In this document: in pieces, positions 8,328 through 64,000 of the stretch
Layout of the letters: every line of letters starts with the position of its first letter
How positions within the stretch are numbered: position 1 is the first letter of the stretch
Origin: Nitrospinales bacterium
Lineage (GTDB): Bacteria > Nitrospinota > Nitrospinia > Nitrospinales > VA-1
NCBI GenBank assembly: GCA_965205835.1
Contig: OZ242182.1
Location: forward strand, 1,935,246 to 1,999,245
Length of the DNA stretch: 64,000 bases
Direction: 5' to 3'
Notes under the pieces: generated by a model
The model's database searches: none
What the model was told of the DNA's origin: nothing
The model's input: the letters and a program-made list of their open reading frames with translations, nothing else
Position numbers and translations under genes: made by a program

Positions 8328-8580
8328 TCCGGGAAATTAGTACCGGATAGCGAGCAAATTGAAGGTGTTTTGCGTTCCCAATATCCGGTTTGCCAGCCAT
8401 GCATGGAGCTCATAACGTCGGGCACAATCTTTTTCAATCTGTACAAATTCCAAACCTCCATAATTTCATAAACCTGGTTCGAGTCAATGCCACCAAAATG
8501 CCGCTGCTAATCCGAATGAAGGTCTCTATCAAAGAAGGGCTGGGGTGATTGACCCTCCGAGGTGTTATCTTTTCAATAAG

Positions 8581-24004: not shown

Positions 24005-24445
24005 AAAAAACCTCCCCCCTGATAAGGAGACCTTTGAATAACCCATGAATACCCCTGGGGCACGAAGGCTAAGGAGAAATATCACGTCTTCGTCGCCTTC
24101 GGATCCTCAAGGATGACAAACCAGCGGTTCCTGTTATCCTGGGCAATCGTTTCTTGTCATTCTGAGCGATAGCGAAGAATCTCGCTCCGGCGGTTCCTGT
24201 TATTTGCATAACCCATGATTACCCCTTCGGGGCACGAAGGCTTAAGGAGAAATATCACGTCTTCGTCGCCTTCGGATCCTCAAGGATGACAAATCAGCGT
24301 TTCCTATCATTCCAAGCAATTGAGAATGACAAACAAGCGTTTCTTGTCATTCCAAGCAATCGTCTCTTGTCATTCTGAGCGATAGCGAAGAATCTCGCTT
24401 TTCTGTTTTTTTCGACTTACGCAAAGCTCTCCCTGATAAGAAGAG
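24005..24445 (+). repeat. composite dispersed intergenic repeat array (copy B)
   Basis: Two ~83-nt units (24038-24120 and 24208-24293) and two CTTGTCATTCTGAGCGATAGCGAAGAATCTCGC units (24153-24185 and 24366-24398). About 75 nt at 24353-24427 are near identical to 27776-27850. Confidence 0.85.
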
Positions 24446-35637: not shown

Positions 35638-38156
35638 TTATACCTTCTCTTCCAACGACCCTGGAATTTTCCGAAAGCTGGCAACAAGTCCATCAAAAGA
35701 CTTCGGTTTATATTTCCTGAAACCCTCCTCGTCCACATATACGAAGTCGTATATTACGCCTGTCCGCACCTTATTAACGTCTTCGCACCACTGCTTAAGC
35801 CGTTCCATCTTGGGCGGCAAATTCCAACTCTAAATGACTATCACCAACAATTTTGTTAAAAATACTTTTTTGGGGAACAATGTAATCCTGTTCCTTGACG
35901 ACAAAGGGTCGGGTTTTTCTCAACTTAATGGTGTCTCGAATTTCAGCACCGCCCCTATCCTGAACCATCAAGTCGTTGATCTGCCTTTTGAAAGTTTCTA
36001 TCAAGGTTTTAGTAGCCTGCAACTCAGACAAGTTTCGCAGGGTGTTGAGATTTTCAAGATCAACCGGCTTTTCAAATAATTCATCATGGATAAACGATTT
36101 TACTTTCCCATACAAAACATCATAGCCACTGACCAGCCTCAACTCTTTCATAATACCTTGGGTGAAATACCCCACAACCGAATGGTAATCCGCAACCTCT
36201 CCAGAATCCAGCAGGGTGGTATGGCTGATTTTACCTGTAGTAATGTCCCGGAATACTATTTCACGTTGCTCTTCCGCACTGAACGTTTTGTAGCCAACCT
36301 TTTCATGACCAAAATTCCCAATATCAAGGCCATCCAGGTTTTTATAATCTCGATAAATCCTTGGGCTTAGAACAGGAATTTCAATGGCAAGTTTTTCCAT
36401 ATCCTTGCTTGTGTTTTCATTATCTACTTCAATAATAATCGGCGTTTTGGGTTTAGTTCCTCCGCCCATTGGCTCGCGCTCAAGTTCAACACCTTCAGAC
36501 TGAATGGATTCCACAAAATCCATAAACGCGTCAGTCCCCACCACGCTGACATATTCCTCTACATTGTTACCGGGATACATTTTCCTAAGACCCCGGCCCA
36601 AAGTTTGCTCCGGCAAAATATTGCTTTGAGCAACATAAGCACGCAGTCCTACAATAGTGGTAACATTCTTCACATCCCAACCTTCTTTGAGCATTAATAC
36701 TGAGACGATGGCTTTGTAAGGGTTGTCCCAGATATCAATCTCATTAGCTTGTTTGCGTAGCTTTTCCAACTCATCCTTATTTTTTCCGGTCGTCGCTTCG
36801 CTGATTTCACCGTTGTTTTTAGTGTGAATCACCAGCACGGCATCTTTTAAATCAGGACAGGTTGCCTCAAGATATTCAGCCACATCGTCACAGTTCTTTG
36901 TGTCGTCCGTCATGACAAAGAGAATAGCTTTCTTATCCAGCTTTTCATGTTCCACATAGGCTTTGCGCCATTCCTCAACACCCAAGTTCAGGTAGTCCGC
37001 ATATTTCTCCGTATATCCGGAGCTTTGCCGCTCGGAAAGCCTGGCGCGGCTAGCAGCGTCTGGCAAAACCGGATGCTTGACAACGTTCTGAGAAATGGCT
37101 TCTACCAGCGGATAATCCGAAACCGTCTGGACAAAGATCGCACCGTTGTTGTGCCTAGGTGTTGCCGTTACATCCACCTGTAAAGATAGAAACCTGTCTT
37201 TGTGTTTCAAACGATTATGAATATCCTCAATCGACTTGAACCACGCCATGCGACTGTCATGGATATGATGCGCTTCATCATTGAGTATAACCAAGCTCAT
37301 CAATATCGCGAACAATATCTCCCAGATCGACCTTGGAGTCCGTAGTCGCTCCCGTGGGACGCTTGCCCAGAAAGTAGTCCGCTGTGTCGTCATCATCGAA
37401 AGACGGCTCAACATCATTGCCGGAATAAATCCGTTGGATATTGGTCAGGAAAATATTACCGGTCTTTCGGGCAACCGCTACATCATCCTGAATATGCAGA
37501 GTCAGTTGAAAATCATCACGCCAGTTACGGCCTTCAAAACCGTTATCCGGCAATACCGGGTCGTCAAAGAAAATACGCAATCCGCCAAAATCCTTACGAA
37601 TCCGGTCCAGGACGATGATATTAGGAGCAATCACCAGGAAATTACGCGCCAGTTCAGAACCTTCCTCATAGAGCTTATGGAAATAACACCATGCCAGGAT
37701 GAGGCTCAAGACCTTGGTCTTGCCGGAGCCGGTTGCCATCTTGAGAACAAGCCGGAGCCAGTCCTCATCAAACATACCGGAAGATATGGCACCAGAGCTA
37801 TCAAAACGTATAAGGTCGTATTTATCCTTGGCCTTGGCAACATCGTAAAGATAGATGACCGTTTCCACCGCTTCACGCTGGGCGAAATAATATTGAAAGC
37901 CTGCCATCGTGCCGTCTGACTTTGGCAACAAGTGCTCCGCCTTAAACCACCACTCCAAAAGAGTAATGCTGGTAGCCGTTGCCCCTTCATAGCCACTTTC
38001 CCGCCAATCCATTACCTTTTTACGCAGTTCATTTACAAGAGGTGGTAATAACTTCTCATAGCTCGATTTCCGCAAAACCTCATCGGCAGGAAACCACCGA
38101 GTTTTCGGGTCAAGCATAACGTGGGGAGAATCAGGAAAGTCAGGATGCAGGGCCAT
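35638..38156 (-). pseudogene. res: type III restriction Res-like helicase subunit, disrupted (locus 1)
   Basis: Three consecutive ORF pieces. Piece 1 is 37278..38156 (Walker A MATGSGKT). Piece 2 is 35795..37417 (DEAH box LNDEAHHIHD). Piece 3 is 35638..35820 (C-terminal tail ...KMERLKQWCEDVN...). The pieces are joined by a 1-nt frameshift near 37291-37292 and a second frame change near 35800-35820. Confidence 0.7.
38015..38156. repeat. 142-bp direct repeat, copy A (functional 5' end of res)
   Basis: Aligns without gaps to 39046-39187 at an offset of 1031 nt, with 4 mismatches, all transitions. Confidence 0.95.
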
Positions 38157-38165
38157 TGCGAAATA

Positions 38166-38585
38166 CTATTTAGGCAGGACGGTGGCAACCAGTATGCCAG
38201 TGAATTCAATCAAGTCGTCAGCATGTTTTTTAATCACCATCTCTACTTGTTTGCAATCAATATCCCGATACTGGTGAGTGACGATATTTCTAAATCCCAC
38301 CATGCCTATTAACTTTTTTTCCAGCTCGGCGTCTATGATGTTCGCTTGCCGGAGCAGGGTAAAACTCTCGGCACTTGTGGGCGGCAATCCTAATTTTTTC
38401 AAGCGAATCACATGATTCGCCATGTCAATACACTGCTCACAGGCTCTTTGCAAATTAACGATAATCGCATCCTGCTTATAAAAATCATCGGCGAAGGTTT
38501 TTTGCGATGGCATGGTGTAATAATCCCGCGCTTGCTTTATACACCGTTCTACGCTGGCTTTTTTCTGTAAGAGAATGTCAGACAT
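38166..38585 (-). CDS. hepT: HepT (DUF86, HEPN) toxin
   Basis: 139-aa ORF with the Rx4HxY motif in FRNIVTHQY. It overlaps the upstream MNT gene by 8 nt. Confidence 0.88.
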   Translation of the reverse strand: MSDILLQKKASVERCIKQARDYYTMPSQKTFADDFYKQDAIIVNLQRACEQCIDMANHVIRLKKLGLPPTSAESFTLLRQANIIDAELEKKLIGMVGFRNIVTHQYRDIDCKQVEMVIKKHADDLIEFTGILVATVLPK

Positions 38586-39027
38586 CGTAAAATCTACCGT
38601 CTCTCAAACCGCTTTCAACGATTTCCCTGCGCTCATCGTTCAGTTTTTGATAAAAGGACAGTATCAACATTTCAAACTCATCAGCTGCGTACTTATCGGC
38701 ACAGTAAATACGCCGGTCGGCGGCGATAACTTCCTTACATAGAAGCACCGAAACCGTACGCAGTTCAATCAAATCGGCATATTCTACCTTTGCCGCCGCC
38801 GCGACCTCGTCCGAGAGGCGTGACCACGTCAGGCGGTCAAGAGAGTGCACCGTTGCGGGCGGGAGTAGTACGGCGATGTCCAGGTCGCTGTCCTGACGCT
38901 GACCTTCCGTTCCCCAAGTGCCGTAGAGATAGATGGCCTGGGTATCCGGGTAGGCAGCAAGGATGGGTTGGGCAAAATTAAGTTGAGCCGCCCCATCCAT
39001 TATCTGTCGGCTCGTTTGCTTAAGCAT
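38578..39027 (-). CDS. mntA: MNT-type nucleotidyltransferase antitoxin
   Basis: GTWGTEGQRQDSDLDIAV matches the GSx10DxD-type NTase motif. The ATG at 39027 (MLKQTS...), which has an upstream GGAAAGGGG, is preferred. The ORF-track start at 39063 lies inside the duplicated res fragment. Confidence 0.85.
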   Translation of the reverse strand: MLKQTSRQIMDGAAQLNFAQPILAAYPDTQAIYLYGTWGTEGQRQDSDLDIAVLLPPATVHSLDRLTWSRLSDEVAAAAKVEYADLIELRTVSVLLCKEVIAADRRIYCADKYAADEFEMLILSFYQKLNDERREIVESGLRDGRFYDV

Positions 39028-39045
39028 CGGACTGATTACCCCTTT

Positions 39046-39187
39046 CCTTTTTACGCAGTTCATTTACAAGAGGTGGTAATAACTTCTCATAGCTCGATTT
39101 CCGCAAAACCTCATCGGCAGGAAACCATCGAATTTTCGGGTCAAGCATAACGTGGGGAGAATCAGGAAAGTCAGAATGTAGGGCCAT
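39046..39187. repeat. 142-bp direct repeat, copy B (orphan duplicate of the res 5' end)
   Basis: About 97% identical to 38015-38156. It retains the res ATG (39187-39185) but would encode only about 53 aa before a stop. Confidence 0.95.
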
Positions 39188-39737
39188 AAGCTAACCTAAT
39201 AGTTTTTTTGTACTGAAAACTCTCACCCTTTAGCTGCGACATTCTTTCAGGGGTGTCGTTACAACTTGCATTAGCGGGTTGTTTAGGATTTTGTTTGTTT
39301 ATATTAATCCACCTTATGCTGACAAAATGTGTCTTTTTGATGGCCTTTTGCAGGAAGCGAGGGCGACTAAAAAATTGTTGGCCTATGGCAACACAGTAGT
39401 CTATCACACATCGTGCACCTCGCAGTTGTTTTTTAGCTTTATCGCCACCGCGCTTGGATTTCTTTAACTCGATAAAAATTATTTCCTTTTCATTCACAAC
39501 CACATAGTCCGCACGTTTACATATTCCCTCCTTGTTTCCGCAATTAAGAATCTTCTCAGGCGATGGGAAAAGATCCGCTTTTAATATAAGGGTATTGTCA
39601 GGCAACCCTTTTAGGTCAACAACATACGATGATCCACTTTCTTGTTCTTTGAGTTTTGCTTGTCCGTTGTGTACCGGGACCAGTGCGTCCCCATTCAATA
39701 GTTGTTTCAACAATGTAAAGTCACTTATTATCATCAT
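39171..39737 (-). CDS. small hypothetical protein with PD-(D/E)xK-like motif
   Basis: The ORF track gives 39171..39767. The ATG at 39737 or 39734 is preferred and overlaps the upstream ATPase stop. It contains CKRADYVVVNEKEIIFIELKKSK, a D...E-x-K arrangement like the restriction-endonuclease fold. This is a motif-level inference only. Confidence 0.55.
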   Translation of the reverse strand: MMIISDFTLLKQLLNGDALVPVHNGQAKLKEQESGSSYVVDLKGLPDNTLILKADLFPSPEKILNCGNKEGICKRADYVVVNEKEIIFIELKKSKRGGDKAKKQLRGARCVIDYCVAIGQQFFSRPRFLQKAIKKTHFVSIRWININKQNPKQPANASCNDTPERMSQLKGESFQYKKTIRLAYGPTF

Positions 39738-41120
39738 CACCCCACAAAATGGCATCCTGAATTTCATTCATCTCATTGATCGTCTCATCAAAGCTGCGTG
39801 CCTCAATCCCAAGCTCTGGATCAATTTCCGCAAGCACAAGCGTTTCGCATCGGCTTCTTCTTGTCTGGCCTGGCTGCTTAATTAAAGCCTTTTCTGCAAT
39901 ATAAACCCTGATTTTTTCACAATCCAACAGTTCCTCCGTCCGATAGCCTTCCTTCTCGGCGATCTGCTTCAGGTAGGGTCTGTCCTGATTCAGCATAATC
40001 AGGGTATTGAGTTCCTTAACGATGTAGTCGCTGTGGGTGGTGATAAAAATCTTGATGCCCAGATTCACACCAAGCGTGCGAAAAGCCGCGCAATGAAACG
40101 CTGATTCTTCGGGTGCAGATTCAATTCCGGTTCATCCACTATCAGCATGTCGCCGTACTCGGCGACATGGCGTAAATAAAAGCCTATGTCAAGCAAAGAC
40201 CGCACCGCGCTGGAACTTTCGTCCATCGCCAGCTTGACGTACTTCTTTGAGGGTTTGAAATAAATCGTGTCGTTGCTTCCGGCGATGTATTCACCGCCAA
40301 CAATATCGGCAAACTCATTCAGGATTTCCGGGTATTTCTTGCGAATAAAACTATCTTCCTTGGCAATGTCCTCAAGCTGACGGATAAAGTTCACGTTAGC
40401 TTTGACCGGCCAGGCATAGTCCTTATAAGATTTGAATAACAAATCTAATGGCTCTATGTTTTGGTCAGGCCGGCTCATTTCTTCCAGCAAACGGTTGCGG
40501 GAAAAATTCAGTTCTTTACGAAAAATCACCGCGCCGGTGCGTTCTGCACTGGCAATGAAGGGGTTTGGGAAAAGTCGACCGAAGATAACTTCAATAACAG
40601 CTCTTGAAACACTTTCCTTGATCACACGAGAAGGCAAGATGTTTTCTTTCCCCTTATCTACCAGCAATGAGACGACCATATCCGTTTCTTCCTTTGATTT
40701 GGTCAGTGACAGTTCAGCTTTTCCGAGTCTGATTTTATTTTCAAAAGCCAAACCTATTATCGTTTCTTCTGTCATTGTCAAATCCACTTGAAACCGGGAA
40801 CCTTTGAAACGATCAGCTTTAGAGGCAAAGACAGTATCCAGCCTTTCGCTGTATTCCTGACAACCACGCTCAAGGATGCTGCTTGCCTGCTCCACATAGT
40901 ACGCAAGATCAATCCGTATGATGCCATCTTTCAACAGGTCGCTAATCTGCTGGTCTATGTCCCTAACTTTCAGCATCCTTTTCCAAGATTGTAGGAAGCC
41001 AAACAGTGCGTAAGTCGCATAAGTTTTTCCGCTATTGTTGTCACCGCAAATGATTGTCAAGTCGCCCAGTTCAAATTCCGCCTGCTTCAGAACGCCAAGA
41101 TTTTCTACCTTTATTTTCAC
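39721..41120 (-). pseudogene. ABC-type (AAA_15/AAA_21-like) ATPase, split by a frameshift (locus 1)
   Basis: 40065..41120 carries Walker A CGDNNSGKTY, ASAERTG and Walker B MLIVDEPELNLHP. 39721..40068 continues with ...NLGIKIFITTHSDYIV (His-loop) in another frame. The junction lies in TTGGTGTGAAT at about 40062-40072. The GTG start overlaps the mod stop (GTGA). Confidence 0.65.
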
Positions 41121-43399
41121 ACCCGCACCTCCACTATCTTCATTGTATCATTTCCAAAAATATCTACCACTTTCACCGCGACCTTCCGCCGTCCTGGCAC
41201 ACACTCATGAAACACGCTTCGCGTTTCCAGTGACCGGTCTTTTTTCGTGCGGAAGGACTGCCATTCGTTTTCAAAGACATAATCACCGGTCCAGACTTCT
41301 TCGGTCTCCCCGCTTTCCTCGTTTTGGACGCGGACAATCTCCCGCTTGGATTCAAAGTCAAAATCCACCGACCAGTAATCAATCCAATCGGTCCATTCTT
41401 TCGTCAATACCTCACGCGTAACGATCCCGTTCTTATCCTTACTGATCTTGATGACCTGGCCCTTGTCCACAACCACTTTAGCTTTACTTTTCTTCAGGCT
41501 TTCATCGACCCCCTCGGCGTCCTGGGAATAAAAAACGGAGAAATCGGTCAGTTCAATGGAAATCCACGCAAGTCCCCCCGGTTGAGCCTTTTGTCGCAAA
41601 CTATAACCCCCCTTGCCCCCCTTATCAGGGGGGAATTGGGTGGAAAGTCCCCCTGACAAGGGGGATTTAGGGGGTTGGTATTGGATATGCGGCTTGATCT
41701 CAATGAACGATACATCGTGGAAGACCACTTGATTCTTCTCCACCGCCCGCTTGTCGAAAACATCACGGGGAATGTATTTCATCGCCAAGTCAATACCCTT
41801 ACTCTTCGCTTCTTCCTGAATATTGGGGAACAGACCCATCTCGAATTCAAAGCCGAGAATATCTACTTTGGTGATGTGTTTTTGGCGGCACTCCAAGATG
41901 ACCTCCTCCACAAACAAACGAGTAACCGGCAGATTGACCGGCCCCACCGCTACCAGCCGTCCGGCCTTTTTGCCCTGAAAGGTATTGAACTGGCTCACCC
42001 CTTCAGCACGGTAGGCGTGCAGAATGAGGTTTGTAAAATCTTTTTCCCTTGTTTCCAGTTGCTTTTGTTTCTCAGCTTCGCGCAGGTTGGGATTCACGCC
42101 GATATGGTGCTGACGTTCATACTTACCGAGATTAAGGATTTCAAAAGCCCGCCAGCTTTTATCCTCTTTCTTGAGTTGACGCTGTACGCCGATCATACGC
42201 TTTCGGGTTGTGTGGATAGCGAATTTCCCGAGGTCGGAGCCGATCCATTTCCGGCCCAGTTTTTCGGCTACGGCGGCAGTGGTGCCGGAACCGCAAAAGA
42301 AATCGGCGACTAGATCGTTTTCGTTAGAGGAAGCTTTGATAATACGTTCTAACAGGGCTTCGGGTTTTTAGGTGGGATAGTCTATTCGTTCTGCTGAAGT
42401 TCGACCAACCATGTCTATGGACCAAACATCACGCGCATTTACAAGCGTGTACCATCCTGTTTGATCTTCGAACTCTTCAACACCTTTGAAGCGATATGGT
42501 TTGAAGCCACGGTTATAAGATTTTTCTTTTGGTACATTGAAAATGGACGCTCCATTTTTAGAATAGAACCAAATTGTGTCATGTTTTCGACCATATCGTC
42601 CTGTAGTTGCACCACCAGATTTGTACGACCAGATTACTTCATTTATAAAATTCTTCTTCCCAAAAATTTCATCTAGTACAAGCCGCAGATAACTATTCAC
42701 CCGCCAATCACAATGAACGTAAATACTGCCGTCATCGGCGAGTAAATCCCGCATCAGGGAAAGCCGTTCATAGATCATGGCAATAAAGGAATCCGCGCCC
42801 TTGCCCCAAGTATCACGGTAGGCAATTTCTTCCAGGATGCCGGGCTTTTTGGTGAAGGTCTCAACCCCCCCCCTCAATCCCCCCTTATCAGGGGGGAGGG
42901 ATGAAGGGATCTCGATATCCATACTGAAATCCGCTCCCACATCAAACGGCGGGTCGATATAGATCAACTTGATTCCGCCCTGCGCCTCAATCTCTTCCCG
43001 CAACGGCCCGTTTTTCAGGGAAGATAAAATCAGTTTGTTATCGCCCCAGATCAGCTTGTTGTTCCAGCCCGTAATCTGCCTGCCGGTCTGCTGGTCAAAC
43101 ATCTCTGTTTGCAGTTTGACAATATCTTCCGCGCGCGGCTCATCCACCTGCTCGATCACCTGAAAAGGCAGGACCACATTATCCACTTCGCTTGTTTTGC
43201 CGTTCCATACCAACTCCACTTCCCGCTTATCCTCAAATAGCAGGAAGCGATATTTTTCCGGCAAATGTTTCCCCGCTTCCAGAAGCTTGATAATGTCGCG
43301 GATTTCATTATCAGCCAGCTTCAGCGGCCCCTCGGTTTTAGATGGCTTTTTAGTGTTTGTCATTCCCGCGCGCTTGGAGGTGTTGGAACAAAAACCCAC
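41117..43399 (-). pseudogene. mod: type III-like N6/N4 DNA methyltransferase (Mod), interrupted by an in-frame TAA (locus 1)
   Basis: 42368..43399 carries motif IV IYIDPPFDVG. After the TAA at 42370-42368 the same frame continues [43 protein letters not shown] (motif I) and runs into ORF 41117..42196, ending ...[22 protein letters not shown]. The probable start is M13 (43363). Confidence 0.75.
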
Positions 43400-55573: not shown

Positions 55574-57982
55574 GTGGCAAAGGCTAAAAAACCGATTGAA
55601 CAATACGAACACAAAGGTAAGAAGCGCAGGAACAACCCGCCTGTAGGTCTTGTCACTCCCACCAGCGACAAGGAATCCAAAAAGAAGAAATATGCCTACG
55701 ACCCGCACATTGAACCCAGTTTGCAGTGGGCAGGGAAATCTGAGCATACCAGCTTTGAAGTTCCCACTGTCTCCCTGCATGTCCATGAACGTATTGACCC
55801 GAAGACGATCATGGAGGCGGTTAAAAAACGCAATGGTAACGACCATAAGCAGGTAGGGCTTTTTGCATCGCCAGAAGAAAACCCGCCGTTGAGGGAGGCA
55901 GTGGATTTTTACTCGCACACTCACGGCTGGAGCAATCGGCTGGTAGCAGGCGATAGCCTGCTGGTCATGAACTCCCTGCTGGAAAAAGAAAGCATGGCGG
56001 GAAAGGTGCAAATGGTTTATATAGACCCACCCTACGGCATCAAATACGGCTCCAATTTCCAGCCTTTCGTCAACAAACGCGATGTCAAGGATGGCAAAGA
56101 TGAGGATTTAACCGCCGAGCCGGAAACGATCAAAGCCTTTCGCGACACCTGGGAGCTGGGCATTCACTCTTACCTGACCTATATGCGCGACCGCTTGCTA
56201 CTGGCACGAGAATTGTTGAGCGAGAGCGGTAGTGTGTTTGTGCAGATTTCGGATGAGAATGTGCATCATATTCGGGAGATTATGGATGAGGTTTTTGGGA
56301 CGGAAAATTTTATCAGAGCAATCTCATTTGTCAAAACAGGAAGCATGGTTTCAAACGTATTGGGGAGGACAAGCGATTATTTAATCTGGTACACAAGAGA
56401 TAAAAATAATACTCGATATAGACAACTATTCTTGGAAAAATTTCCCGATGATTTTTATAGCAATGTTGAACTATCTAATGGCACTATTCGAAAAATAACA
56501 AAGGCAGAGAAATTAGATATGTCTCTCCTACCCAGAGGGGCAAAGGTCTTTCAGCTTGTTAGCCTTGAAAGTGCTGGGCCTGCTAATCAAGATACGCCGT
56601 TAGAGTTTGAGGGTGAAATTTTTCGCCCAAATAGAAATAGGCACTGGTCCTTGGCTTTTCCGGACGGTATGGAGACACTGAAGCGAACAGGGAGAATGGT
56701 AAAAGATGGTGATAAACTACGCTGGAAATACTATATCGACGATTATCCGATCAAGGTACTATCGGAAATTTGGAATGACACAGCAGGCTTTAGCCCAGAT
56801 CAAAAATATGTTGTAGAAACACGCACAAAAGTCATCCAACGCTGTATGCTGATGACCACCGACCCTGGCGACCTGGTGTTTGACCCGACCTGCGGTAGCG
56901 GCACCACCGCCTTTGCCGCCGAGCAATGGGGGCGAAGGTGGATCACCTGTGATACCTCTCGGGTAGCATTAACCCTGGCCAAACAGCGGCTGACGACCGC
57001 AACCTTTGACTACTACAAACTCGCCCATCCTGATGAAGGTGTCGGCAGTGGTTTTGAATATAAAACCGTGCCCCACATTACCTTGAAATCTATTGCCAAC
57101 AAAGAACCGCTCGCTACTGAAACCCTTTACGATCAACCCTTCAGAGACAGCAAAAAGAAACGGGTGAGCGGTCCCTTCACCGTGGAAGCGGTACCCGCCC
57201 CGGCAGTGAAATCGCTGGATGATATGCTGCCAGATACCCCACCGCCTGCTGATGTCTCCATCGTCCGCTCGGGCGAAACTCTGCGCCAAAGTGAATGGCG
57301 CGATGAACTATTACAGGCCGGCGTGCGTGGCAAAAATGGCCAGATGATTTTGTTTTCTCGTGTTGAACCGCTTTCCGCAACCCGTTGGCTCCATGCCGAT
57401 GCCGAAACCGGACCCAACGATAAAGGTGGGGACACAGTTAAGGAAGAAGATGTGATTTATGGGAATCCTGAGCGGGTAGTCATTTCATTTGGCCCTGAAC
57501 ACGCCCCTCTGGAACAAAAACAGGTCGAACTGGCATGGCAGGAAGCACGGACTTTAATTCCCAAACCAGGTATCATCATCTTCGCGTCCTTCCAGTTTGA
57601 TCCGGAGGCGGCGAAAGATATTGATAAATTGACCATGGATAAAACTGGAATGACATTCCTTAAGGCGCAAATGAACACTGACCTTTTGACAGACGATTTA
57701 AAGAAGAAACGGGCAAGTAATCAATCCTTTTGGTTGATCGGGCAACCTGATATAGAACTCCGTGCCATAGACAAGGGAGAGCATAAAGGAAAACTAGAGG
57801 TGGAAGTGCATGGGTTTGATTATTACAACACCAGGACCGGAGCCATCGAGTCCGGCAACACCGCAAAGATCGCCCTTTGGATGCTGGATACCGATTATGA
57901 CGGGCGGAGCCTATATCCACGGCAGGTGTTTCTCCCGATGTCGGGGGGGGGGGCGGCTGGTCCCGATTGGCGAAAAACCTGA
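55574..57982 (+). CDS. mod: type III-like N6/N4 DNA methyltransferase (Mod), C-terminally truncated at a poly-G tract (locus 2)
   Basis: GTG start, with GGAGG whose 3' end lies 6 nt upstream of the GTG. Motif IV VYIDPPYGIKYG precedes motif I VFDPTCGSGTTAFAAEQWGRRWI (beta-class order). The ORF ends 26 nt after the G11 tract. The conserved tail ...GWSRLAKNLKAEIDEELIEAYRGTVSLPFETGKHKQVAVKIVDDRGIESLRILEVGE is encoded out of frame at 57955-58128. Confidence 0.85.
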   Translation: MAKAKKPIEQYEHKGKKRRNNPPVGLVTPTSDKESKKKKYAYDPHIEPSLQWAGKSEHTSFEVPTVSLHVHERIDPKTIMEAVKKRNGNDHKQVGLFASPEENPPLREAVDFYSHTHGWSNRLVAGDSLLVMNSLLEKESMAGKVQMVYIDPPYGIKYGSNFQPFVNKRDVKDGKDEDLTAEPETIKAFRDTWELGIHSYLTYMRDRLLLARELLSESGSVFVQISDENVHHIREIMDEVFGTENFIRAISFVKTGSMVSNVLGRTSDYLIWYTRDKNNTRYRQLFLEKFPDDFYSNVELSNGTIRKITKAEKLDMSLLPRGAKVFQLVSLESAGPANQDTPLEFEGEIFRPNRNRHWSLAFPDGMETLKRTGRMVKDGDKLRWKYYIDDYPIKVLSEIWNDTAGFSPDQKYVVETRTKVIQRCMLMTTDPGDLVFDPTCGSGTTAFAAEQWGRRWITCDTSRVALTLAKQRLTTATFDYYKLAHPDEGVGSGFEYKTVPHITLKSIANKEPLATETLYDQPFRDSKKKRVSGPFTVEAVPAPAVKSLDDMLPDTPPPADVSIVRSGETLRQSEWRDELLQAGVRGKNGQMILFSRVEPLSATRWLHADAETGPNDKGGDTVKEEDVIYGNPERVVISFGPEHAPLEQKQVELAWQEARTLIPKPGIIIFASFQFDPEAAKDIDKLTMDKTGMTFLKAQMNTDLLTDDLKKKRASNQSFWLIGQPDIELRAIDKGEHKGKLEVEVHGFDYYNTRTGAIESGNTAKIALWMLDTDYDGRSLYPRQVFLPMSGGGAAGPDWRKT
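57943..57953 (+). repeat. G11 homopolymer (candidate contingency/phase-variation tract) inside mod
   Basis: Counted directly: tc-GGGGGGGGGGG-cggctgg. G12 (or G9) joins the upstream frame to the 58-codon downstream frame ending at 58128. Confidence 0.9.
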
Positions 57983-58124
57983 AAGCCGAGATCGACGAGG
58001 AGTTGATAGAAGCCTATCGGGGAACTGTATCCTTGCCTTTTGAAACCGGCAAACACAAACAGGTAGCAGTTAAAATAGTGGACGACCGTGGAATTGAAAG
58101 TTTGCGGATTTTGGAGGTGGGTGA

Positions 58125-60821
58125 ATGAGCAGTCAAAATTCATACAAGGGCGCACGATTTTATAAGTGCGCTTTACAGGTTAACTCGTATCGCTATGCGG
58201 AATATCGAGGTAAGACACCACAGGATGAGAGCACTTACAATAACCAAATTCTGGAGCAGTGCAAAACAAATAATATCAAGGTGGTTGGGTTAGCTGATCA
58301 CGGTAAAGTAGAAGATTCGGAATCGTTGCGGAGTTTGTTGCGGGGAAGGGATATCACCGTATTTCCCGGATTTGAAATCGCAAGCTCTGAAAAGATTCAC
58401 ATGGTTTGTCTTTATCCTGAAGAAACAATAATATCAAAGCTCAATCAGTATCTTGGGCAGTTGATGGGAACTAACACCTCTGAGCTTAAGGAAGCATCCA
58501 CATATCCATCATCGCTAAGCTGCGAAGAAATTGCAAGTGCTGTTCTAAATAATCAAATAGGGTTTTGGTATGCAGCACATATGACAGGAACAAATGGTTT
58601 GCTCAGCTTAAGTCGCACGGGTGGTAATTATATTCACCTTTGGAGAAAAAAAGATTTAGTGGTTGCCGGACAAATCCCCGGGAAAACAGACGATTTAGAT
58701 GTCGAGCAAACCAAATTAAAGAGCTATAAAGATATTATTGAAAACAAAAACCCTGACTACAAGCGAGACAAACCCATTGCCATCATCAACGCTAAGGATA
58801 TAGAGCAACCTGAAACACTGGCGCATCCTTCCGCTTCTTGTTTGATTAAGATGACCGAACCCAACTTCGATGCATTCAAGCAGGCATTCATGGATTCGGA
58901 ATCTCGCATTCGCTTAAATCACCAAGCACCGGAACGTCAGTATTCATCTATCAAATCCATAAAGTGGCAAGGTGCTGGATTTTTTGAAGATAGTGATATC
59001 ATATTTTCTAAACATCTCAATACTATTATTGGTGGTCGTGGCACAGGTAAATCGACCATAATAGAAAGCATACGCTACGCTTTGGACTTGCCAACTCGCA
59101 AGGATAATAATGGTAATAAGTCGTTGGAGGTTTTTCGTAAAAACATACTCAATAATTCACAGGTTATTTTAGAAGTTTATTCAAAAACGCAGCAAGGGAA
59201 CTGCTATACAATCAGCAGGCGTTATGGCGAAGCACCGATAGTTAAAAATAATCAGGGAGAAGTTTCTCATTTAATACCAAGGGATATTCTGCCAGATATT
59301 GAATTGCTGGGACAAAACGAGATTTTAGAAATTGAAAAGGATGAAGATGCCAAACTGTCTCTTATTGACAACTTTCTGCCAAATAGCGATAGATTTAATA
59401 CTGACATGGCTGAAATTAAACGTAGGTTGGCAGATAACAGAAATAAGTTGATAAAAGCGAATGAGGAGCTTGAACGACTGGACGAGGCCATCAGCAAAGA
59501 AGACAAACTGAAGGAAAAAGTAACGCAATTTAAAAAGCTAGGCGTAGAGGATAAGTTAAAGAATGCTAAATTGATCGAAAAAGAAAAGATCATTCAAGCA
59601 AAAATTAAAGAACAGTTTGATGCGGTTGAAAAATGGACAAAGAGCTATCAATCAATATTTGACTTGACGTTTTTGCGAGAAACTGATCTTGCGGAGCTTC
59701 CCAATGAATCAAGCATGGTCGCAACGCGGAAAATTTTTGAGGATTTACAAAAAACACTCAGTGACCTCATTGAACAAGCTAATAAAGAATTACAAAACGC
59801 TAAGGAAAAGTATCAAGAAGCACAATCACCATGGCAAGAGAAAGCGGAAAAAATTCGTACTGATCTGAATGAAGCGATTACCCAACTGCCCGGGCAGGCA
59901 GGAAAATCTGGCAAAGAATTAGGAACGGAATATACAGACATCATTCAACAATTGACGCTAATAGAAAAACAAGGGCAGACACACAAGAATCAGAAGAAAA
60001 TAGTTGAAGCGATTGAACTTGAGCGAACAACTCTGCTGGAAGAATATCGAAATACTGCTTTCAATTATTTTAAAACTATGGATAAAAAGGTTAAAAAACT
60101 AAACGAAAGCGACCTAAAAGACAAAGTAAAAATTGAAGTGAATCGCTGTGGAAACGTGGATTCTCTAAAAGATTTTCTGCTTGATATTGAGGGCATTGGC
60201 GAGTCTAAAATACAATGGTTAAATGAGGAGAAAATAGAATTGGATTTGGTGGAATGGTCACAATGGATAAAAGAGAAAAATTCTGTTGCTTTTATGGAAA
60301 AATACCAAGCATACGGATTAACCAGAGGCGTTGCAGACAGGCTGATTAGCGTGAACATATCTAAACGGTTGGAATTGGAAGAGATTGAGCTGAAAGATCA
60401 AGTTGGTATTAAACTGAACACGGCTCACGAGAATAGTGCCCCCTACTATATACCGCTTGATAAGTTATCAACAGGTCAAAAATGTACGGCTATCTTAAAT
60501 TTGCTGCTACTGAACCCTAATGATCCTTTGATTATTGACCAGCCAGAAGATAACTTAGATAACGCTTTTATCGCCGAACGTATTGTGCGGGATTTAAGAA
60601 AGCTCAAAATCAATCGGCAATTTTTGTTTGCCTCCCACAACGCCAACATACCGGTATTTGGCGATGCCGAGTTAATTGCAGTGTTAGATAGCAAAGAGGG
60701 AAAAGGGCAGATTAAAAATATCGGCTCTATTGATAAATTAGAAGTGAGCAAGGATGCAGCGGAAATACTGGAAGGCGGAGAAGCGGCTTTTAATATGCGA
60801 AAAAACAAGTATGGTTTTTAA
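58125..60821 (+). CDS. PHP-like N-terminal domain fused to an SMC/Rad50/RecN-type ABC ATPase
   Basis: 898-aa ORF. N-terminus GARFYKCALQVNSYRY...GLADHG...FPGFEIASSEKIHMVCLY (PHP-like). Walker A IIGGRGTGKSTII. A long K/E-rich coiled-coil-like middle region. LSTGQKCTAILNLLL, Walker B PLIIDQPEDNLD and FASHNANI. Confidence 0.8.
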   Translation: MSSQNSYKGARFYKCALQVNSYRYAEYRGKTPQDESTYNNQILEQCKTNNIKVVGLADHGKVEDSESLRSLLRGRDITVFPGFEIASSEKIHMVCLYPEETIISKLNQYLGQLMGTNTSELKEASTYPSSLSCEEIASAVLNNQIGFWYAAHMTGTNGLLSLSRTGGNYIHLWRKKDLVVAGQIPGKTDDLDVEQTKLKSYKDIIENKNPDYKRDKPIAIINAKDIEQPETLAHPSASCLIKMTEPNFDAFKQAFMDSESRIRLNHQAPERQYSSIKSIKWQGAGFFEDSDIIFSKHLNTIIGGRGTGKSTIIESIRYALDLPTRKDNNGNKSLEVFRKNILNNSQVILEVYSKTQQGNCYTISRRYGEAPIVKNNQGEVSHLIPRDILPDIELLGQNEILEIEKDEDAKLSLIDNFLPNSDRFNTDMAEIKRRLADNRNKLIKANEELERLDEAISKEDKLKEKVTQFKKLGVEDKLKNAKLIEKEKIIQAKIKEQFDAVEKWTKSYQSIFDLTFLRETDLAELPNESSMVATRKIFEDLQKTLSDLIEQANKELQNAKEKYQEAQSPWQEKAEKIRTDLNEAITQLPGQAGKSGKELGTEYTDIIQQLTLIEKQGQTHKNQKKIVEAIELERTTLLEEYRNTAFNYFKTMDKKVKKLNESDLKDKVKIEVNRCGNVDSLKDFLLDIEGIGESKIQWLNEEKIELDLVEWSQWIKEKNSVAFMEKYQAYGLTRGVADRLISVNISKRLELEEIELKDQVGIKLNTAHENSAPYYIPLDKLSTGQKCTAILNLLLLNPNDPLIIDQPEDNLDNAFIAERIVRDLRKLKINRQFLFASHNANIPVFGDAELIAVLDSKEGKGQIKNIGSIDKLEVSKDAAEILEGGEAAFNMRKNKYGF

Positions 60822-60836
60822 GGATGTTAGTACGAG

Positions 60837-62036
60837 ATGCTAAAAAGTAAACTGTTAGAACTCCTTAACCAAGGGGAAGGACCTAAACTTGAATATAAGC
60901 AGGATAGTATCCGCCCCGAGTCGCTGGCGAAACAAATAGTCGGTCTTGCTAATATGAATGGCGGTCAAATTCTAATGGGTGTTGAAGACGATGGTCGTGT
61001 TAGCGGCATTCAAAGAGAGAATTTTCAAGAATGGTTGATGGATACGGTTGTCGCAAAATATGTTCACCCTTTTATCTTGCCAGACTATGAAGAAGTCACC
61101 TTTGAAGACAAAAAAATAGCAGTTGTGGAAATCCCACCGGGCAACAACAAGCCATACATGGTTAAACACAACGACCGTGAGGACATCTATGTTCGCTACG
61201 GTAATACCTGCCAATTGGCAACACGAGAACAGCAAGCTAGATTATTCGCTACTGGCGGGCTTTTGTCGGCAGAAAAATTTCCTGTACTTGGTTCCACAAT
61301 TGCAGATTTGGATGAACGACGCTACAAAGAATATTTCCACGATATCCTAGAACATCCGCGAGCAGATGATTTGCAAAAATTGCTTATTGACCATAGCTTT
61401 CTGGTGGGTGAGTCTCAAAATTTAAGCTGTAGCTATTTTGCCTATGCCTTGTTTGCGAAAACACCCCAAGTAAAGTTGCCACAGGCTGGACTAAGACTCA
61501 CCGTTTATGATGGAGATGACAAGGATTACAACACTCTGTTTGATAAAGATTTTAACATCCCTATGGTGGCGTATCGTGGCTCCTCAATATCTGACCCCAT
61601 TGAAAACTCGTTGCATGAAAATAGAGATTTTCTGGAATACATTAGCCACGAGAAGCTGGAACAGATGACCCGTAAGAGAGTATGGAATTACCCCAAAGAA
61701 GTAATAAGAGAATTAGTGATCAACGCACTCATTCATCGAGACTGGACAAAGCAGGGTTCTGTGCGCGTTGTTATTTATGCCAACCGCTTTGAAATAACCA
61801 GCCCCGGCGCATTACCAAACGGTATGACAGTGGAGAAAATAAAAAATGGCGTGTCTGAACAACGCAATCCATTGGCAGCTAGAGTTTTCCGAGATTACGG
61901 TTATCTGGAACAGCAAGGAATGGGCATTCGGCTCAAAGTCATTCCGTTGATGTTGGAGCACAACAGCAGGGAGCCCGATTTTGAATCCACTGAAGACCAT
62001 TTCAAAGTAACACTATGGAGAAGACAAACAAACTAA
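60837..62036 (+). CDS. AlbA_2 (Schlafen-type 'divergent AAA') plus HATPase_c_4-like protein, putative nucleic-acid-binding regulator/sensor
   Basis: 399-aa ORF. N-terminus LLELLNQGEGPKLEYKQDSIRPESLAKQIVGLANMNGGQILMGVEDDGRVSGI. C-terminus ELVINALIHRDWTKQGSVRVVIYANRFEITSPGALPNGMT...RNPLAARVFRDYGYLEQQGMGI. Confidence 0.75.
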   Translation: MLKSKLLELLNQGEGPKLEYKQDSIRPESLAKQIVGLANMNGGQILMGVEDDGRVSGIQRENFQEWLMDTVVAKYVHPFILPDYEEVTFEDKKIAVVEIPPGNNKPYMVKHNDREDIYVRYGNTCQLATREQQARLFATGGLLSAEKFPVLGSTIADLDERRYKEYFHDILEHPRADDLQKLLIDHSFLVGESQNLSCSYFAYALFAKTPQVKLPQAGLRLTVYDGDDKDYNTLFDKDFNIPMVAYRGSSISDPIENSLHENRDFLEYISHEKLEQMTRKRVWNYPKEVIRELVINALIHRDWTKQGSVRVVIYANRFEITSPGALPNGMTVEKIKNGVSEQRNPLAARVFRDYGYLEQQGMGIRLKVIPLMLEHNSREPDFESTEDHFKVTLWRRQTN

Positions 62037-64000
62037 CCATCAACTCTCCTTATGAAGAGCCCTCTCATTATTTGAAATATGACCGGGAGAAGCGCCTGTT
62101 CTCTAAAGAAGAGGGTCGGCGGCGTGCTGGATATGTAGTTGCCACCTCAGGTTCCAAATCTTTTGATGACCCCGGACAATTTGTTCCACTTCTACTGGTC
62201 AATAAAATTCGCCCTCGCGTCAAAGCATGGCGGGAAGCCGGGTATCCTGGGGTTACTGGAATAACCAAACGTTTGCTTGAACATTGGAAAAACGAAGAGG
62301 AACGGGCTCACCGTCAATTCTTCTTCTGCCAGATGGAAGCAATTGAAACAATAGTCTGGTTGAATGAGGCTTCTTCTGCCAAAAAACAGGGAATCGACGT
62401 ACCTAGTGACGGCGGTCCTTTCACTCGCCTCTGTTCCAAGATGGCTACCGGCTCAGGAAAAACGATTGTTATGGCAATGCTGATTGCTTGGCAAGTCATT
62501 AACAAAATTACTTACCCGCAGGATAGACGATTCTCAAAAAATGTGTTTATCATCGCTCCCGGCTTGACGGTTAAAAATCGGTTGCGGGTTTTAAATCATT
62601 CCTGTGACGATAATTATTACGATGAATTCAACATTGTTCCTTTAGCCCTAAGAGGAAAACTGCGGCAAGGGAAAATATTGATCCATAATTGGCACAAGCT
62701 GAATTGGGAAAATGAGGAAAAAATTAAAAGTAAAAAAGGTGTGGATAAGCGGGGAGCCAAAAGTGATTGCGCTTATGCTCGGGAAGTTTTGGGAAATATG
62801 GCCAACGCAAAAAATATTCTGGTCATTAACGATGAGGCGCATCACGCCTGGCGGGTCCCCGCAGAATCTAAAATAGCAGGGATCAAAAAGGAAGACATTG
62901 AGGAGGCTACTAAATGGGTAGGAGGCCTGGACCGCATTCATAACGCCTGTGGTATCATGACCTGTTACGATCTTTCGGCCACCCCTTTTGCTCCTTCTGG
63001 GAAAAAAGCGCAAGAAGAAGCCCTGTTTCCCTGGGTGATTAGCGATTTCGGATTGAACGATGCGATAGAATCTGGATTGGTCAAGACACCCAGGGTGGTT
63101 GTGCGTGATGATGCCCTGCCCGACACCAAAACTTTTAAATCAAAACTATATCATCTTTATATAGCATCCGAAGTTAAAGATGATTTGAACAGAAAAGCCG
63201 AGGAATATGAGCCACTACCCGACCTAGTATTGAACGCGTATTATTTATTGGGGCTGGACTGGAGAGAAACCGCACGGGATTGGAAAAAGAATGGGTTTAA
63301 AGTTCCGCCGGTAATGATAACCGTAGCCAACCGAACTGAAACAGCTGCACGAGTAAAATACGCGTTCGATAAATCAAAAATTAATATCGAAGAATTATCA
63401 AATCCTGATTTAACCCTTCATATTGATTCAAATGTATTGAAGAAGGCGGAAGAGGTTGAGGAGCCCGTTACGGTTAATGGCCGTGATCAGAATTCTAAAG
63501 GGGATAGGGCTAAACCAAAACTTACCAGGCAGGAAATGGCGGAAAATCTTCGTCTGCAAGTTAACACGATTGGAAACATCGGGAAACCCGGCGAAAAGAT
63601 CCAAAATGTAATTTCCGTTGGCATGCTTTCAGAGGGATGGGACACCAAAACCGTTACCCATATCATGGGCCTGCGGGCATTTTCCAGCCAGTTATTATGC
63701 GAGCAAGTCGTAGGGCGTGGTTTAAGAAGAACTTCTTATGAAGTAGACCTGGAGACAGGATTATTTCAGGCGGAGTACGTCAATATTTTTGGCATCCCAT
63801 TCACTTTCCTTCCTCATGAAGAAGGAGACGGTCCTCCCCCTCCTCCCCCGTCGCCCAAGACCAAAATTGAACCAGTGCCGGAGAAACAATGTTATGAAAT
63901 TTCCTGGCCCAATATAATCCGGACCAACCGCGTGTACAAACCTGTTCTAGAGCTTGACCTGGATAAGGCACAACCCTTTAAGATGGATGCCACGGAAAAC
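62015..64000 (+). CDS. res: type III restriction Res-like helicase subunit (locus 2), 3' end beyond the window
   Basis: Absent from the ORF track because there is no stop in the window. Manual translation from the ATG at 62015 gives MEKTNKLTINSPYEEPSHYLKYD...SKMATGSGKTIVMAM (Walker A)...LVINDEAHHAW (DEAH)...SEGWDTKTVTHIMGLRAF...QVVGRGLRR. The frame is open for 662 codons to the window edge. It overlaps the previous gene by 22 nt. Confidence 0.85.
   Translation, partial: MEKTNKLTINSPYEEPSHYLKYDREKRLFSKEEGRRRAGYVVATSGSKSFDDPGQFVPLLLVNKIRPRVKAWREAGYPGVTGITKRLLEHWKNEEERAHRQFFFCQMEAIETIVWLNEASSAKKQGIDVPSDGGPFTRLCSKMATGSGKTIVMAMLIAWQVINKITYPQDRRFSKNVFIIAPGLTVKNRLRVLNHSCDDNYYDEFNIVPLALRGKLRQGKILIHNWHKLNWENEEKIKSKKGVDKRGAKSDCAYAREVLGNMANAKNILVINDEAHHAWRVPAESKIAGIKKEDIEEATKWVGGLDRIHNACGIMTCYDLSATPFAPSGKKAQEEALFPWVISDFGLNDAIESGLVKTPRVVVRDDALPDTKTFKSKLYHLYIASEVKDDLNRKAEEYEPLPDLVLNAYYLLGLDWRETARDWKKNGFKVPPVMITVANRTETAARVKYAFDKSKINIEELSNPDLTLHIDSNVLKKAEEVEEPVTVNGRDQNSKGDRAKPKLTRQEMAENLRLQVNTIGNIGKPGEKIQNVISVGMLSEGWDTKTVTHIMGLRAFSSQLLCEQVVGRGLRRTSYEVDLETGLFQAEYVNIFGIPFTFLPHEEGDGPPPPPPSPKTKIEPVPEKQCYEISWPNIIRTNRVYKPVLELDLDKAQPFKMDATEN

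What the first reader, a model, noticed from the sequence alone, without database searches (positions are those of the whole stretch)
57943..57953. G11 homopolymer in mod truncates a conserved C-terminal domain; G12 restores it and restores coupling to the next gene
As assembled, mod reads ...PMSGGGAAGPDWRKT* and stops 26 nt after an 11-G run.

The adjacent frame is open from 57955 to 58128. It encodes GWSRLAKNLKAEIDEELIEAYRGTVSLPFETGKHKQVAVKIVDDRGIESLRILEVGE. This is clearly homologous to the C-terminus of the other Mod in this window (...[24 protein letters not shown]). It also ends in an ATGA overlap with the downstream ATPase gene.

One extra G (G12), or G9, fuses the two frames. Slipped-strand switching at simple repeats is an established on/off mechanism for type III mod genes in host-adapted bacteria (phasevarions). 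Here the switch would remove only the last ~57 residues and would probably uncouple translation of the downstream genes. A homopolymer sequencing error is the trivial alternative.
Basis: partly seen in the sequence, partly recalled or inferred. Interest (0 to 1): 0.7.

Follow-up and report, generated by a model that had tools for sequence, protein, structure and literature searches.

The report
Poly-G frameshift in type III methylase gene
A real run of 11 G's, found in no relative, cuts the conserved last 57 residues off a restriction-system DNA methylase in a Nitrospina-like bacterium; it looks like a known kind of slippage on/off switch, but no change in run length has been seen, so simple gene decay is not excluded.

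Summary
G11 lies at 57943-57953. The mod ORF (55574-57982) stops 26 nt later. The adjacent frame (57955-58128) encodes the family's conserved C-terminus and ends in an ATGA overlap with the next gene.

It is not a one-off assembly error. Re-assembled contigs of three public runs (two samples, depth 76-880x) read G11 exactly.

The gene is a true type III Mod: its Res gene lies downstream, after an inserted TrlF ATPase gene and a Schlafen/AlbA_2 gene.

About 390 homologues have exactly three residues at this site. Among the 153 orthologous loci read as DNA, the longest G run there is 5.

The two closest relatives read GG(C/T)GAAAAGGAC. The tract therefore arose in this lineage by six changes to G. 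G12 is collinear with the family; the window is one G short.

Phase variation is plausible (the published criterion is a run of 9 or more) but unproven. Only one length was seen, and raw reads were not available.

Decay is a serious rival. The syntenic sister genome carries an independent frameshift 30 nt downstream, and a second type III-like locus in the window is broken three times.

Verdict: new member of a known kind, moderate interest.

The parts
55574..57982 (+). Type III mod gene as assembled (802 aa; GTG start). It is truncated by a -1 frameshift relative to the family.
   Evidence: ORF and translation. Pfam N6_N4_Mtase E = 2e-29. PADLOC MTase_III E = 3.4e-140. A profile of homologues matches EcoP15I Mod 4zcf and H. 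pylori Mod 6k0w. The model of homologue P0010 has 4zcf as its top fold match.
57943..57953 (+). G11 homopolymer. It lies in the codons for the variable 3-residue linker between the conserved PMSG and GW motifs. G12 would be collinear with the family.
   Evidence: G11 is confirmed in contigs of runs X1, X2 and X3. The relatives read GG(C/T)GAAAAGGAC at this site.
57955..58128 (+). Out-of-frame remnant that encodes the near-invariant C-terminal 57 residues of Mod. In the model of homologue P0010 this stretch forms two helices and a beta-hairpin.
   Evidence: Translation. 37 of about 55 positions are at least 90% conserved in 94 homologues. pLDDT is 81-88 in the model. dN/dS against the sister genome is 0.115.
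58113..58117 (+). GGAGG Shine-Dalgarno-like sequence 7 nt upstream of the trlF ATG.
   Evidence: Read directly from the sequence.
58125..60821 (+). trlF: a TrlF-family AAA-like ATPase with similarity to the anti-phage protein Ppl. Its ATG overlaps the stop codon of the restored mod frame (ATGA).
   Evidence: NCBIfam NF045780, 505 bits against a cut-off of 350. PADLOC Ppl E = 1.4e-38.
60837..62036 (+). Gene for a Schlafen AlbA_2 / HATPase_c_4 protein (399 aa).
   Evidence: Pfam PF04326 E = 8.5e-24 and PF13749 E = 3.8e-22.
62015..64000 (+). Type III res gene (ResIII helicase). It is open to the end of the window (at least 661 codons).
   Evidence: Open frame. Pfam ResIII E = 2.1e-9. It aligns with the sister genome's 928-aa Res, relatives of which lie downstream of mod in about 70 of 80 genome loci.

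Best explanation
The G11 run is a real, lineage-specific, slippage-prone repeat inside a genuine type III restriction-modification mod gene of a Nitrospina-like bacterium.

Shown: It replaced the ancestral linker codons GG(C/T) GAA AAG GAC (G-E-K-D) through six changes to G. A 12-G version encodes a protein collinear with the whole family. The sequenced populations carry the -1 length (G11). This length ends Mod 49 residues short of the restored 851-aa protein: the last 57 family residues are lost and a 9-residue out-of-frame tail is added. It also moves the mod stop codon 143 nt upstream of the trlF start.

Inferred: A run of 11 G's gains and loses single G's during replication at a high rate. 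The locus should therefore flip between a full-length form (G12, G9) and truncated forms (G11, G10). This would be a reversible on/off, or altered-function, switch of the Mod C-terminal module and hence of this restriction-modification system. Reduced translation of trlF, the Schlafen-like gene and res in the off state is possible but not shown.
For: - The tract and frames are as described.
- G11 is identical in contigs of three runs from two samples at depth 830, 76 and 880.
- Runs of 9 or more in a type III mod meet the published criterion for potential phase variation (PMC5909438).
- The linker is exactly 3 residues in 118 + 117 homologous proteins and in 153 loci; none is GGG. G12 is therefore the family-collinear length.
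- The tract sits in the only variable spot of an otherwise near-invariant C-terminus.
- The two closest relatives have no tract. Six of 13 bases differ from the sister, all changed to G, where about 1.2 differences are expected (binomial P = 7e-4).
- GGG makes up only 20% of Gly codons here.
- The rest of the operon is intact, and the remnant shows purifying selection: 10 synonymous and 5 non-synonymous changes, omega 0.115, P = 3e-4 against neutrality.
- The ATGA overlap of mod and trlF is conserved in all loci that have trlF.
- The only other G/C run of 7 or more in the window (C9, 42865-42873) is also in a mod gene.
Against: - Only one length (G11) was seen. No alternative contig was laid in any run, although contigs cannot show minor variants.
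- No tract and no allelic series exist in any orthologue, including the syntenic sister.
- The sister genome has an independent, non-repeat frameshift 30 nt downstream.
- A second type III-like locus in the window is decayed by a nonsense codon and two frameshifts, none of them at a repeat. Restriction-system decay is therefore under way in this lineage.
- The tract lies 94% of the way through the gene. Classical phase-variable mod genes are switched off as a whole (my knowledge).
- Neither methylation nor protein data exist.
Confidence: 0.5

Rival explanations
1. Plain decay. The system is being lost, and the G run is merely the most mutable site, where the gene happened to break. The G11 state is fixed, unselected and not used as a switch.
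For: - One length only in three runs.
- The sister genome's mod is broken independently 30 nt away by a non-repeat 2-nt gap.
- The second type III-like locus (35.8-43.4 kb) has three inactivating lesions. The res2 frameshift is confirmed in the contigs of all three runs.
- Other family members also carry lesions in the tail: L025, L082 and L126.
- No orthologue has a tract.
Against: - trlF, the Schlafen-like gene and res are intact, and the 790 codons of mod before the tract are uninterrupted.
- The remnant still looks selected (omega 0.115), so any loss is recent.
- Decay does not explain how six changes to G built a frame-preserving tract in the one tolerant loop.
Confidence: 0.35
2. Recoding without a DNA change. 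RNA polymerase slippage on the G run, or a -1 ribosomal slip on G GGG GGG, makes some full-length Mod from the G11 allele. The gene would then be leaky rather than off.
For: - A -1 ribosomal slip, or one extra G in the mRNA, gives exactly the conserved frame (frame arithmetic).
- The run is longer than the roughly 9-bp RNA-DNA hybrid, which is the condition for transcriptional slippage (my knowledge).
- The remnant, the ATGA overlap and the Shine-Dalgarno-like sequence are all preserved.
Against: - There is no stimulatory RNA structure downstream: -24.2 kcal/mol, z = -0.63.
- The site is conserved in no relative, unlike programmed frameshift sites.
- No RNA runs were available to test it.
Confidence: 0.08
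3. Sequencing or assembly artefact. The true length is G12 and the gene is intact.
For: Homopolymers are error-prone on some platforms. It is not known whether runs X1-X3 are independent of the deposited assembly.
Against: - Independent k-mer re-assemblies of three runs from two samples give G11 with 0 mismatches and 0 gaps at 76-880x.
- The C9 run (42865-42873) lies in contigs that match with 0 differences in X1 and X3.
- The other runs of 8 or 9 checked in the window lie inside uninterrupted ORFs.
Confidence: 0.04

Closest known systems
Phase-variable type III mod genes with G[n] tracts (H. pylori modH/modJ/modL, C. upsaliensis modU; survey by Atack et al. 2018, PMC5909438)
   Same: A mononucleotide G run of 9 or more lies inside a type III mod ORF, and gain or loss of one G shifts the frame. 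[quoted passage not shown]
   Different: Tract-length variation is not demonstrated here. The tract is in the last 6% of the gene, so it removes only a 57-residue C-terminal module. The Mod belongs to a long (~850 aa) subfamily whose C-terminal ~390 residues match no solved structure by sequence. The operon carries trlF and a Schlafen-like gene between mod and res.
EcoP15I-type type III R-M systems (Mod2Res1; PDB 4zcf)
   Same: A beta-class N6-adenine methylase with the DPPY motif before FxGxG, a central target-recognition domain, and a ResIII helicase-nuclease partner in the same operon.
   Different: There is an extra conserved C-terminal extension. Two accessory genes lie between mod and res. 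The target-recognition domain differs entirely between the window and its sister genome.
Poly-G-controlled C-terminal truncation of the type I specificity subunit (NgoAV hsdS, Neisseria gonorrhoeae). Recalled from my own knowledge, not checked here.
   Same: A G run near the 3' part of a restriction-modification gene produces a truncated rather than an absent protein.
   Different: In NgoAV the truncated subunit is active with altered specificity. No activity of the truncated Mod is known here, and it is a different enzyme type.
Poly(A)-tract frameshifts rescued by transcriptional slippage in insect endosymbionts (Tamas et al. 2008). Recalled from my own knowledge, not checked here.
   Same: An out-of-frame long homopolymer sits in an otherwise conserved gene whose downstream frame stays under selection.
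   Different: Those tracts are A/T runs in AT-rich reduced genomes. Here it is a single G run in a 47% G+C genome, and no RNA data exist.

Membership tests
Type III restriction-modification Mod subunit | Beta-class N6-adenine methylase domain (PF01555) with the catalytic DPPY motif upstream of the FxGxG SAM-binding motif | tested here: met
   IDPPYG lies near residue 160 and DPTCGSGTT near residue 448. Pfam E = 2e-29. PADLOC MTase_III E = 3.4e-140.
Type III restriction-modification Mod subunit | Sequence and fold similarity to solved type III Mod subunits | tested here: met
   The family profile matches 6k0w (E = 1.8e-23) and 4zcf (E = 1.3e-21) over positions 125-460. The model of homologue P0010 has 4zcf as its top Foldseek hit, E = 2.6e-17. 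This was tested on a 74%-identical homologue, not on the window protein itself.
Type III restriction-modification Mod subunit | A cognate Res (ResIII helicase) gene in the same operon | tested here: met
   The window frame 62015-64000 carries ResIII. Relatives of the sister genome's Res lie downstream of mod in about 70 of 80 genome loci.
Phase-variable (simple-repeat-switched) type III mod / phasevarion | A simple repeat inside the ORF of a length known to slip (mononucleotide run of 9 or more) | tested here: met
   G11 at 57943-57953. Criterion taken from PMC5909438.
Phase-variable (simple-repeat-switched) type III mod / phasevarion | A change of repeat length moves the ORF in and out of frame | tested here: met
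   G12 and G9 read through to 851 and 850 aa; G11 stops at 802 aa. By my hand translation of the sequence, G10 gives a third frame that stops after about 30 codons.
Phase-variable (simple-repeat-switched) type III mod / phasevarion | Observed tract-length variation within a population or between strains | tested here: inconclusive
   X1, X2 and X3 all read G11 with a single contig each. X4, X5 and X6 contigs stop short of the tract. Only contigs were available, no raw reads.
Phase-variable (simple-repeat-switched) type III mod / phasevarion | The repeat is shared by alleles or orthologues of the gene | tested here: not met
   The longest G run at the site is 5 in 153 loci. The sister genome L001 and the Tara scaffold L162 read GG(C/T)GAAAAGGAC. 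No GGG linker occurs among 235 homologous proteins.
Phase-variable (simple-repeat-switched) type III mod / phasevarion | Switching changes genome methylation and gene expression | not testable with these tools
   This needs SMRT or Nanopore methylomes and transcriptomes of G11 and G12 variants.
Programmed -1 ribosomal frameshift site | A slippery heptamer plus a downstream stimulatory structure, conserved among relatives | tested here: not met
   G GGG GGG formally fits the X XXY YYZ pattern. The downstream fold is not better than shuffles, z = -0.63. The site is absent from all relatives.

The most novel reading that the evidence does not exclude
The tract is an evolved 3'-end switch. It does not turn the methylase off. 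Instead it toggles the conserved C-terminal module of Mod and, through loss of the ATGA stop-start overlap, the expression of the downstream defence genes (trlF, the Schlafen-like gene, res). One slip would then convert a restricting system into a methylation-only or silent state. The independent frameshift at almost the same place in the sister genome, and the apparent ~4-fold excess of lesions per codon in the tail across the family (3 of 151 loci; weak), would then reflect recurrent selection for exactly this truncation.
Probability: 0.12. Interest if true: 0.6.

Novelty: new member of a known kind. Interest (0 to 1): 0.35.

Why it matters
If the run really flips, this would be a poly-G switch that arose newly in one lineage, in a type III restriction system of a nitrite-oxidising (Nitrospina-like) bacterium. 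That is outside the host-adapted pathogens where such switches have been characterised. Its origin is unusually traceable: six changes to G in a tolerant loop, with the ancestral state preserved in two relatives. It would also show that a 3'-terminal switch can act on a conserved C-terminal module of unknown function in a widespread ~850-aa Mod subfamily, and would offer a handle on that function.

If it does not flip, it is one more recently broken restriction gene. That is ordinary.

Tried and rejected
- Raw-read inspection was not possible. All runs found are held only as contigs, and no RNA run was found.
- Runs X4 and X5 (near-identical strains at low depth) and X6 (2013, low depth) have contigs that end before the tract, so they give no length.
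- An exact-product look-up of the window's own Mod found nothing. TrlF, the Schlafen-like protein and Lon are single-member clusters, so no other assembly of this strain is on record.
- The genome and metagenome scans returned no relative above 76% identity, so no sister alleles with a tract were found. A second protein search with the C-terminal half gave 84% at best, again with an EKD linker.
- A literature search for 'TrlF' returned only spectroscopy papers.
- The fold and sequence searches gave no solved-structure match that could be assigned to the C-terminal extension.
- Origin of the tract from the palindromic mini-element seen in mod2 was rejected. G12 is collinear with the family, so nothing was inserted, and the flanking CCGATGTC is conserved coding sequence.
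- A separate small gene for the remnant (TTG at 57967) was considered. No relative shares such a start, and the sister's frameshift lies downstream of it. It was not pursued.
- A hot spot of lesions in the tail was tested. About 4-fold more lesions per codon than upstream, but only 3 events (Poisson P about 0.03, calculated by hand); too weak to claim.

Full report
**Observation.** The window reads ...CCGATGTC-G11-CGGCTGG..., with the G run at exactly 57943-57953.
- The ORF 55574-57982 (802 aa) ends ...PMSGGGAAGPDWRKT*, 26 nt after the run.
- The adjacent frame 57955-58128 is open. It encodes GWSRLAKNLKAEIDEELIEAYRGTVSLPFETGKHKQVAVKIVDDRGIESLRILEVGE, and its TGA overlaps the ATG of the next gene as ATGA.
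- One more G (G12), or two fewer (G9), fuses the frames into 851 or 850 aa.
- The run is an outlier. The window has 13 G5 runs, 3 G6 runs, none of 7-10, and this one G11. Only one other G/C run of 9 or more exists in 64 kb.

**Not an assembly error.** Public runs X1, X2 and X3 come from two samples of one study. Each yields a single contig across 57700-58200 with no mismatch and no gap, at k-mer depth 830, 76 and 880. G11 is therefore the majority allele. Contigs cannot show minor variants, and no raw reads or RNA runs were on hand. Three other runs with near-identical sequence are too shallow, and their contigs stop short of the run.

**What the gene is.**
- The protein has the DPPY and FxGxG motifs, the Pfam N6_N4_Mtase domain and a strong PADLOC type III methylase match.
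- A profile of 94 homologues matches EcoP15I Mod (4zcf) and an H. pylori Mod (6k0w) over positions 125-460. A model of the 74%-identical homologue P0010 has 4zcf as its best fold match.
- Downstream lie a TrlF-family ATPase gene (58125-60821; NCBIfam 505 bits against a cut-off of 350; Ppl-like), a Schlafen AlbA_2/HATPase_c_4 gene (60837-62036) and a ResIII gene that is open to the window's end.
- In about 70 of 80 genome loci of this family a related Res follows mod, often directly. trlF plus the Schlafen-like gene lie in between in only a few loci: L001, L033, L036, L040 and, in part, L010.
- This is therefore a genuine type III system with an accessory insert.
- The 90%-identity clusters of GlnA and ClpX are named Nitrospina or Nitrospinaceae, so the host is a Nitrospina-like bacterium. 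The source contig is 2.43 Mb.

**The C-terminus and the tract site.**
- Hundreds of ~850-aa homologues cover 99-100% of the fused protein.
- In an alignment of 94 of them, 37 of the last ~55 positions are at least 90% conserved. In the model these residues form two helices and a beta-hairpin with pLDDT 81-88.
- Between the conserved PM(A/S)G and GW motifs there are always exactly three variable, mostly charged residues. This holds in 118 and 117 proteins from two searches and in 153 loci read as DNA. None has GGG, and the longest G run at the site is 5.
- G12 is thus the family-collinear length, and the window is one G short.

**Origin of the tract.**
- L001 is a 2.86-Mb contig with the same glnE-glnA-glnB | mod-trlF-slfn-res order as the window.
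- L001 and the next-closest sequence, a Tara Oceans scaffold (L162), read GGC/GGT GAA AAG GAC (G-E-K-D) at the site.
- The window differs from L001 at 6 of 13 bases, all changed to G. The surrounding 690 nt are 90.5% identical, so about 1.2 differences are expected (P = 7e-4).
- GGG makes up only 20% of Gly codons in the window's genes.
- The tract was therefore built in this lineage, in the one loop that tolerates it. That fits selection for a repeat. A local mutational event cannot be excluded.

**Signs of decay.**
- L001's mod is also truncated (815 aa), by an independent 2-nt gap 30 nt downstream of the tract site and not at a repeat.
- The window's other type III-like locus (35.8-43.4 kb, minus strand) is dead. 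It has an in-frame TAA in mod2, a frameshift in its ATPase gene and a frameshift in res2, none at a homopolymer. The res2 lesion is confirmed in the run contigs.
- Three further family members carry lesions in the tail. Per codon that is about 4 times the upstream rate, but it rests on only 3 events.

**Signs against long-standing decay.**
- trlF, the Schlafen-like gene and res are intact, and mod is uninterrupted for 790 codons.
- The out-of-frame remnant differs from L001 by 10 synonymous and 5 non-synonymous changes. This gives omega 0.115, like the in-frame part (0.10), and P = 3e-4 against neutrality.
- The frameshifts are therefore recent relative to the split of the two genomes, or the remnant is still translated some of the time.

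**Mechanism.** By the published criterion (a mononucleotide run of 9 or more in a type III mod), the gene counts as potentially phase-variable. Such genes are also known from environmental species (PMC5909438).
- My best reading (0.5) is a slippage-prone tract currently in the -1 state, which can revert and so toggles the Mod C-terminal module.
- Plain, unselected decay is the main rival (0.35).
- Recoding at the RNA or ribosome level is possible on frame arithmetic. It has no downstream structure (z = -0.63) and no conservation (0.08).
- Artefact is unlikely (0.04).

**Coupling.** The ATGA overlap of mod and trlF is present in every locus that has trlF, so coupling is a family feature. In the G11 state mod terminates 143 nt upstream. 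However, trlF has its own GGAGG 7 nt before its ATG. Reduced expression downstream is therefore an inference, not a finding.

**Verdict.** The phase-variation reading is plausible but unproven, with one of its expected features (a shared tract in relatives) tested and not met. This is a new member of a known kind. Its interest lies in the clear new origin of the tract, its 3' position and the independent break in the sister genome. Interest 0.35.

Noticed in passing
window 35795-43399 (minus strand): A second type III-like locus: mod2, an AAA_15/AAA_21 ATPase gene, small genes, then res2. It is decayed by an in-frame TAA in mod2 (about 42368-42370, YPT*KPE), a frameshift in the ATPase gene near 40065 and a frameshift in res2 near 37280-37417. 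None of these lies at a homopolymer.
   Followed up: partly
window 41616-41633, 42879-42896 (degenerate copies at 41648-41665 and 24014-24031); C9 run at 42865-42873: A palindromic mini-element, CCCCCCTTATCAGGGGGG, sits twice inside mod2 and is read in frame as PPDKGG. Six matches were found against 0.08 expected. Next to one copy is a C9 run, the only other G/C run of 7 or more in the window.
   Followed up: partly
window 39100-41100 and 42225-42750: In runs X1-X3 these stretches also occur as roughly 97%-similar variant contigs. Their depth is about 4x (X1, X3) to more than 100x (X2) the chromosomal depth. Further copies must exist elsewhere in the genome, on another replicon or in another abundant organism of the sample.
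   Followed up: no
L001 6001-14448; L033, L036, L040, L010: The four-gene cassette mod - trlF - Schlafen/AlbA_2 - res recurs in distant lineages (a Gammaproteobacteria MAG, Candidatus Oxydemutator, Leptonemataceae), always with an ATGA overlap of mod and trlF. Most other family loci have res directly after mod, or other inserts.
   Followed up: partly
window Mod residues ~240-420 vs L001: The central target-recognition region is unrelated between the window and the syntenic sister (48% nucleotide identity), while the flanks are 79-91% identical. This is a specificity-domain swap within one locus.
   Followed up: no
L001 about 8440-8450; L025, L082, L126: Independent lesions in the last ~55 codons of mod occur in other genomes: a 2-nt gap, two frameshifts and a TAA. 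Per codon this is about 4 times the rate in the upstream 790 codons, but it rests on 3 unselected events.
   Followed up: partly
window 38166-39063 (minus strand): Two overlapping small genes sit between the ATPase gene and res2 of the decayed locus. Their translations look like a nucleotidyltransferase/HEPN-type toxin-antitoxin pair. This is judged by eye only; no family search was run.
   Followed up: no
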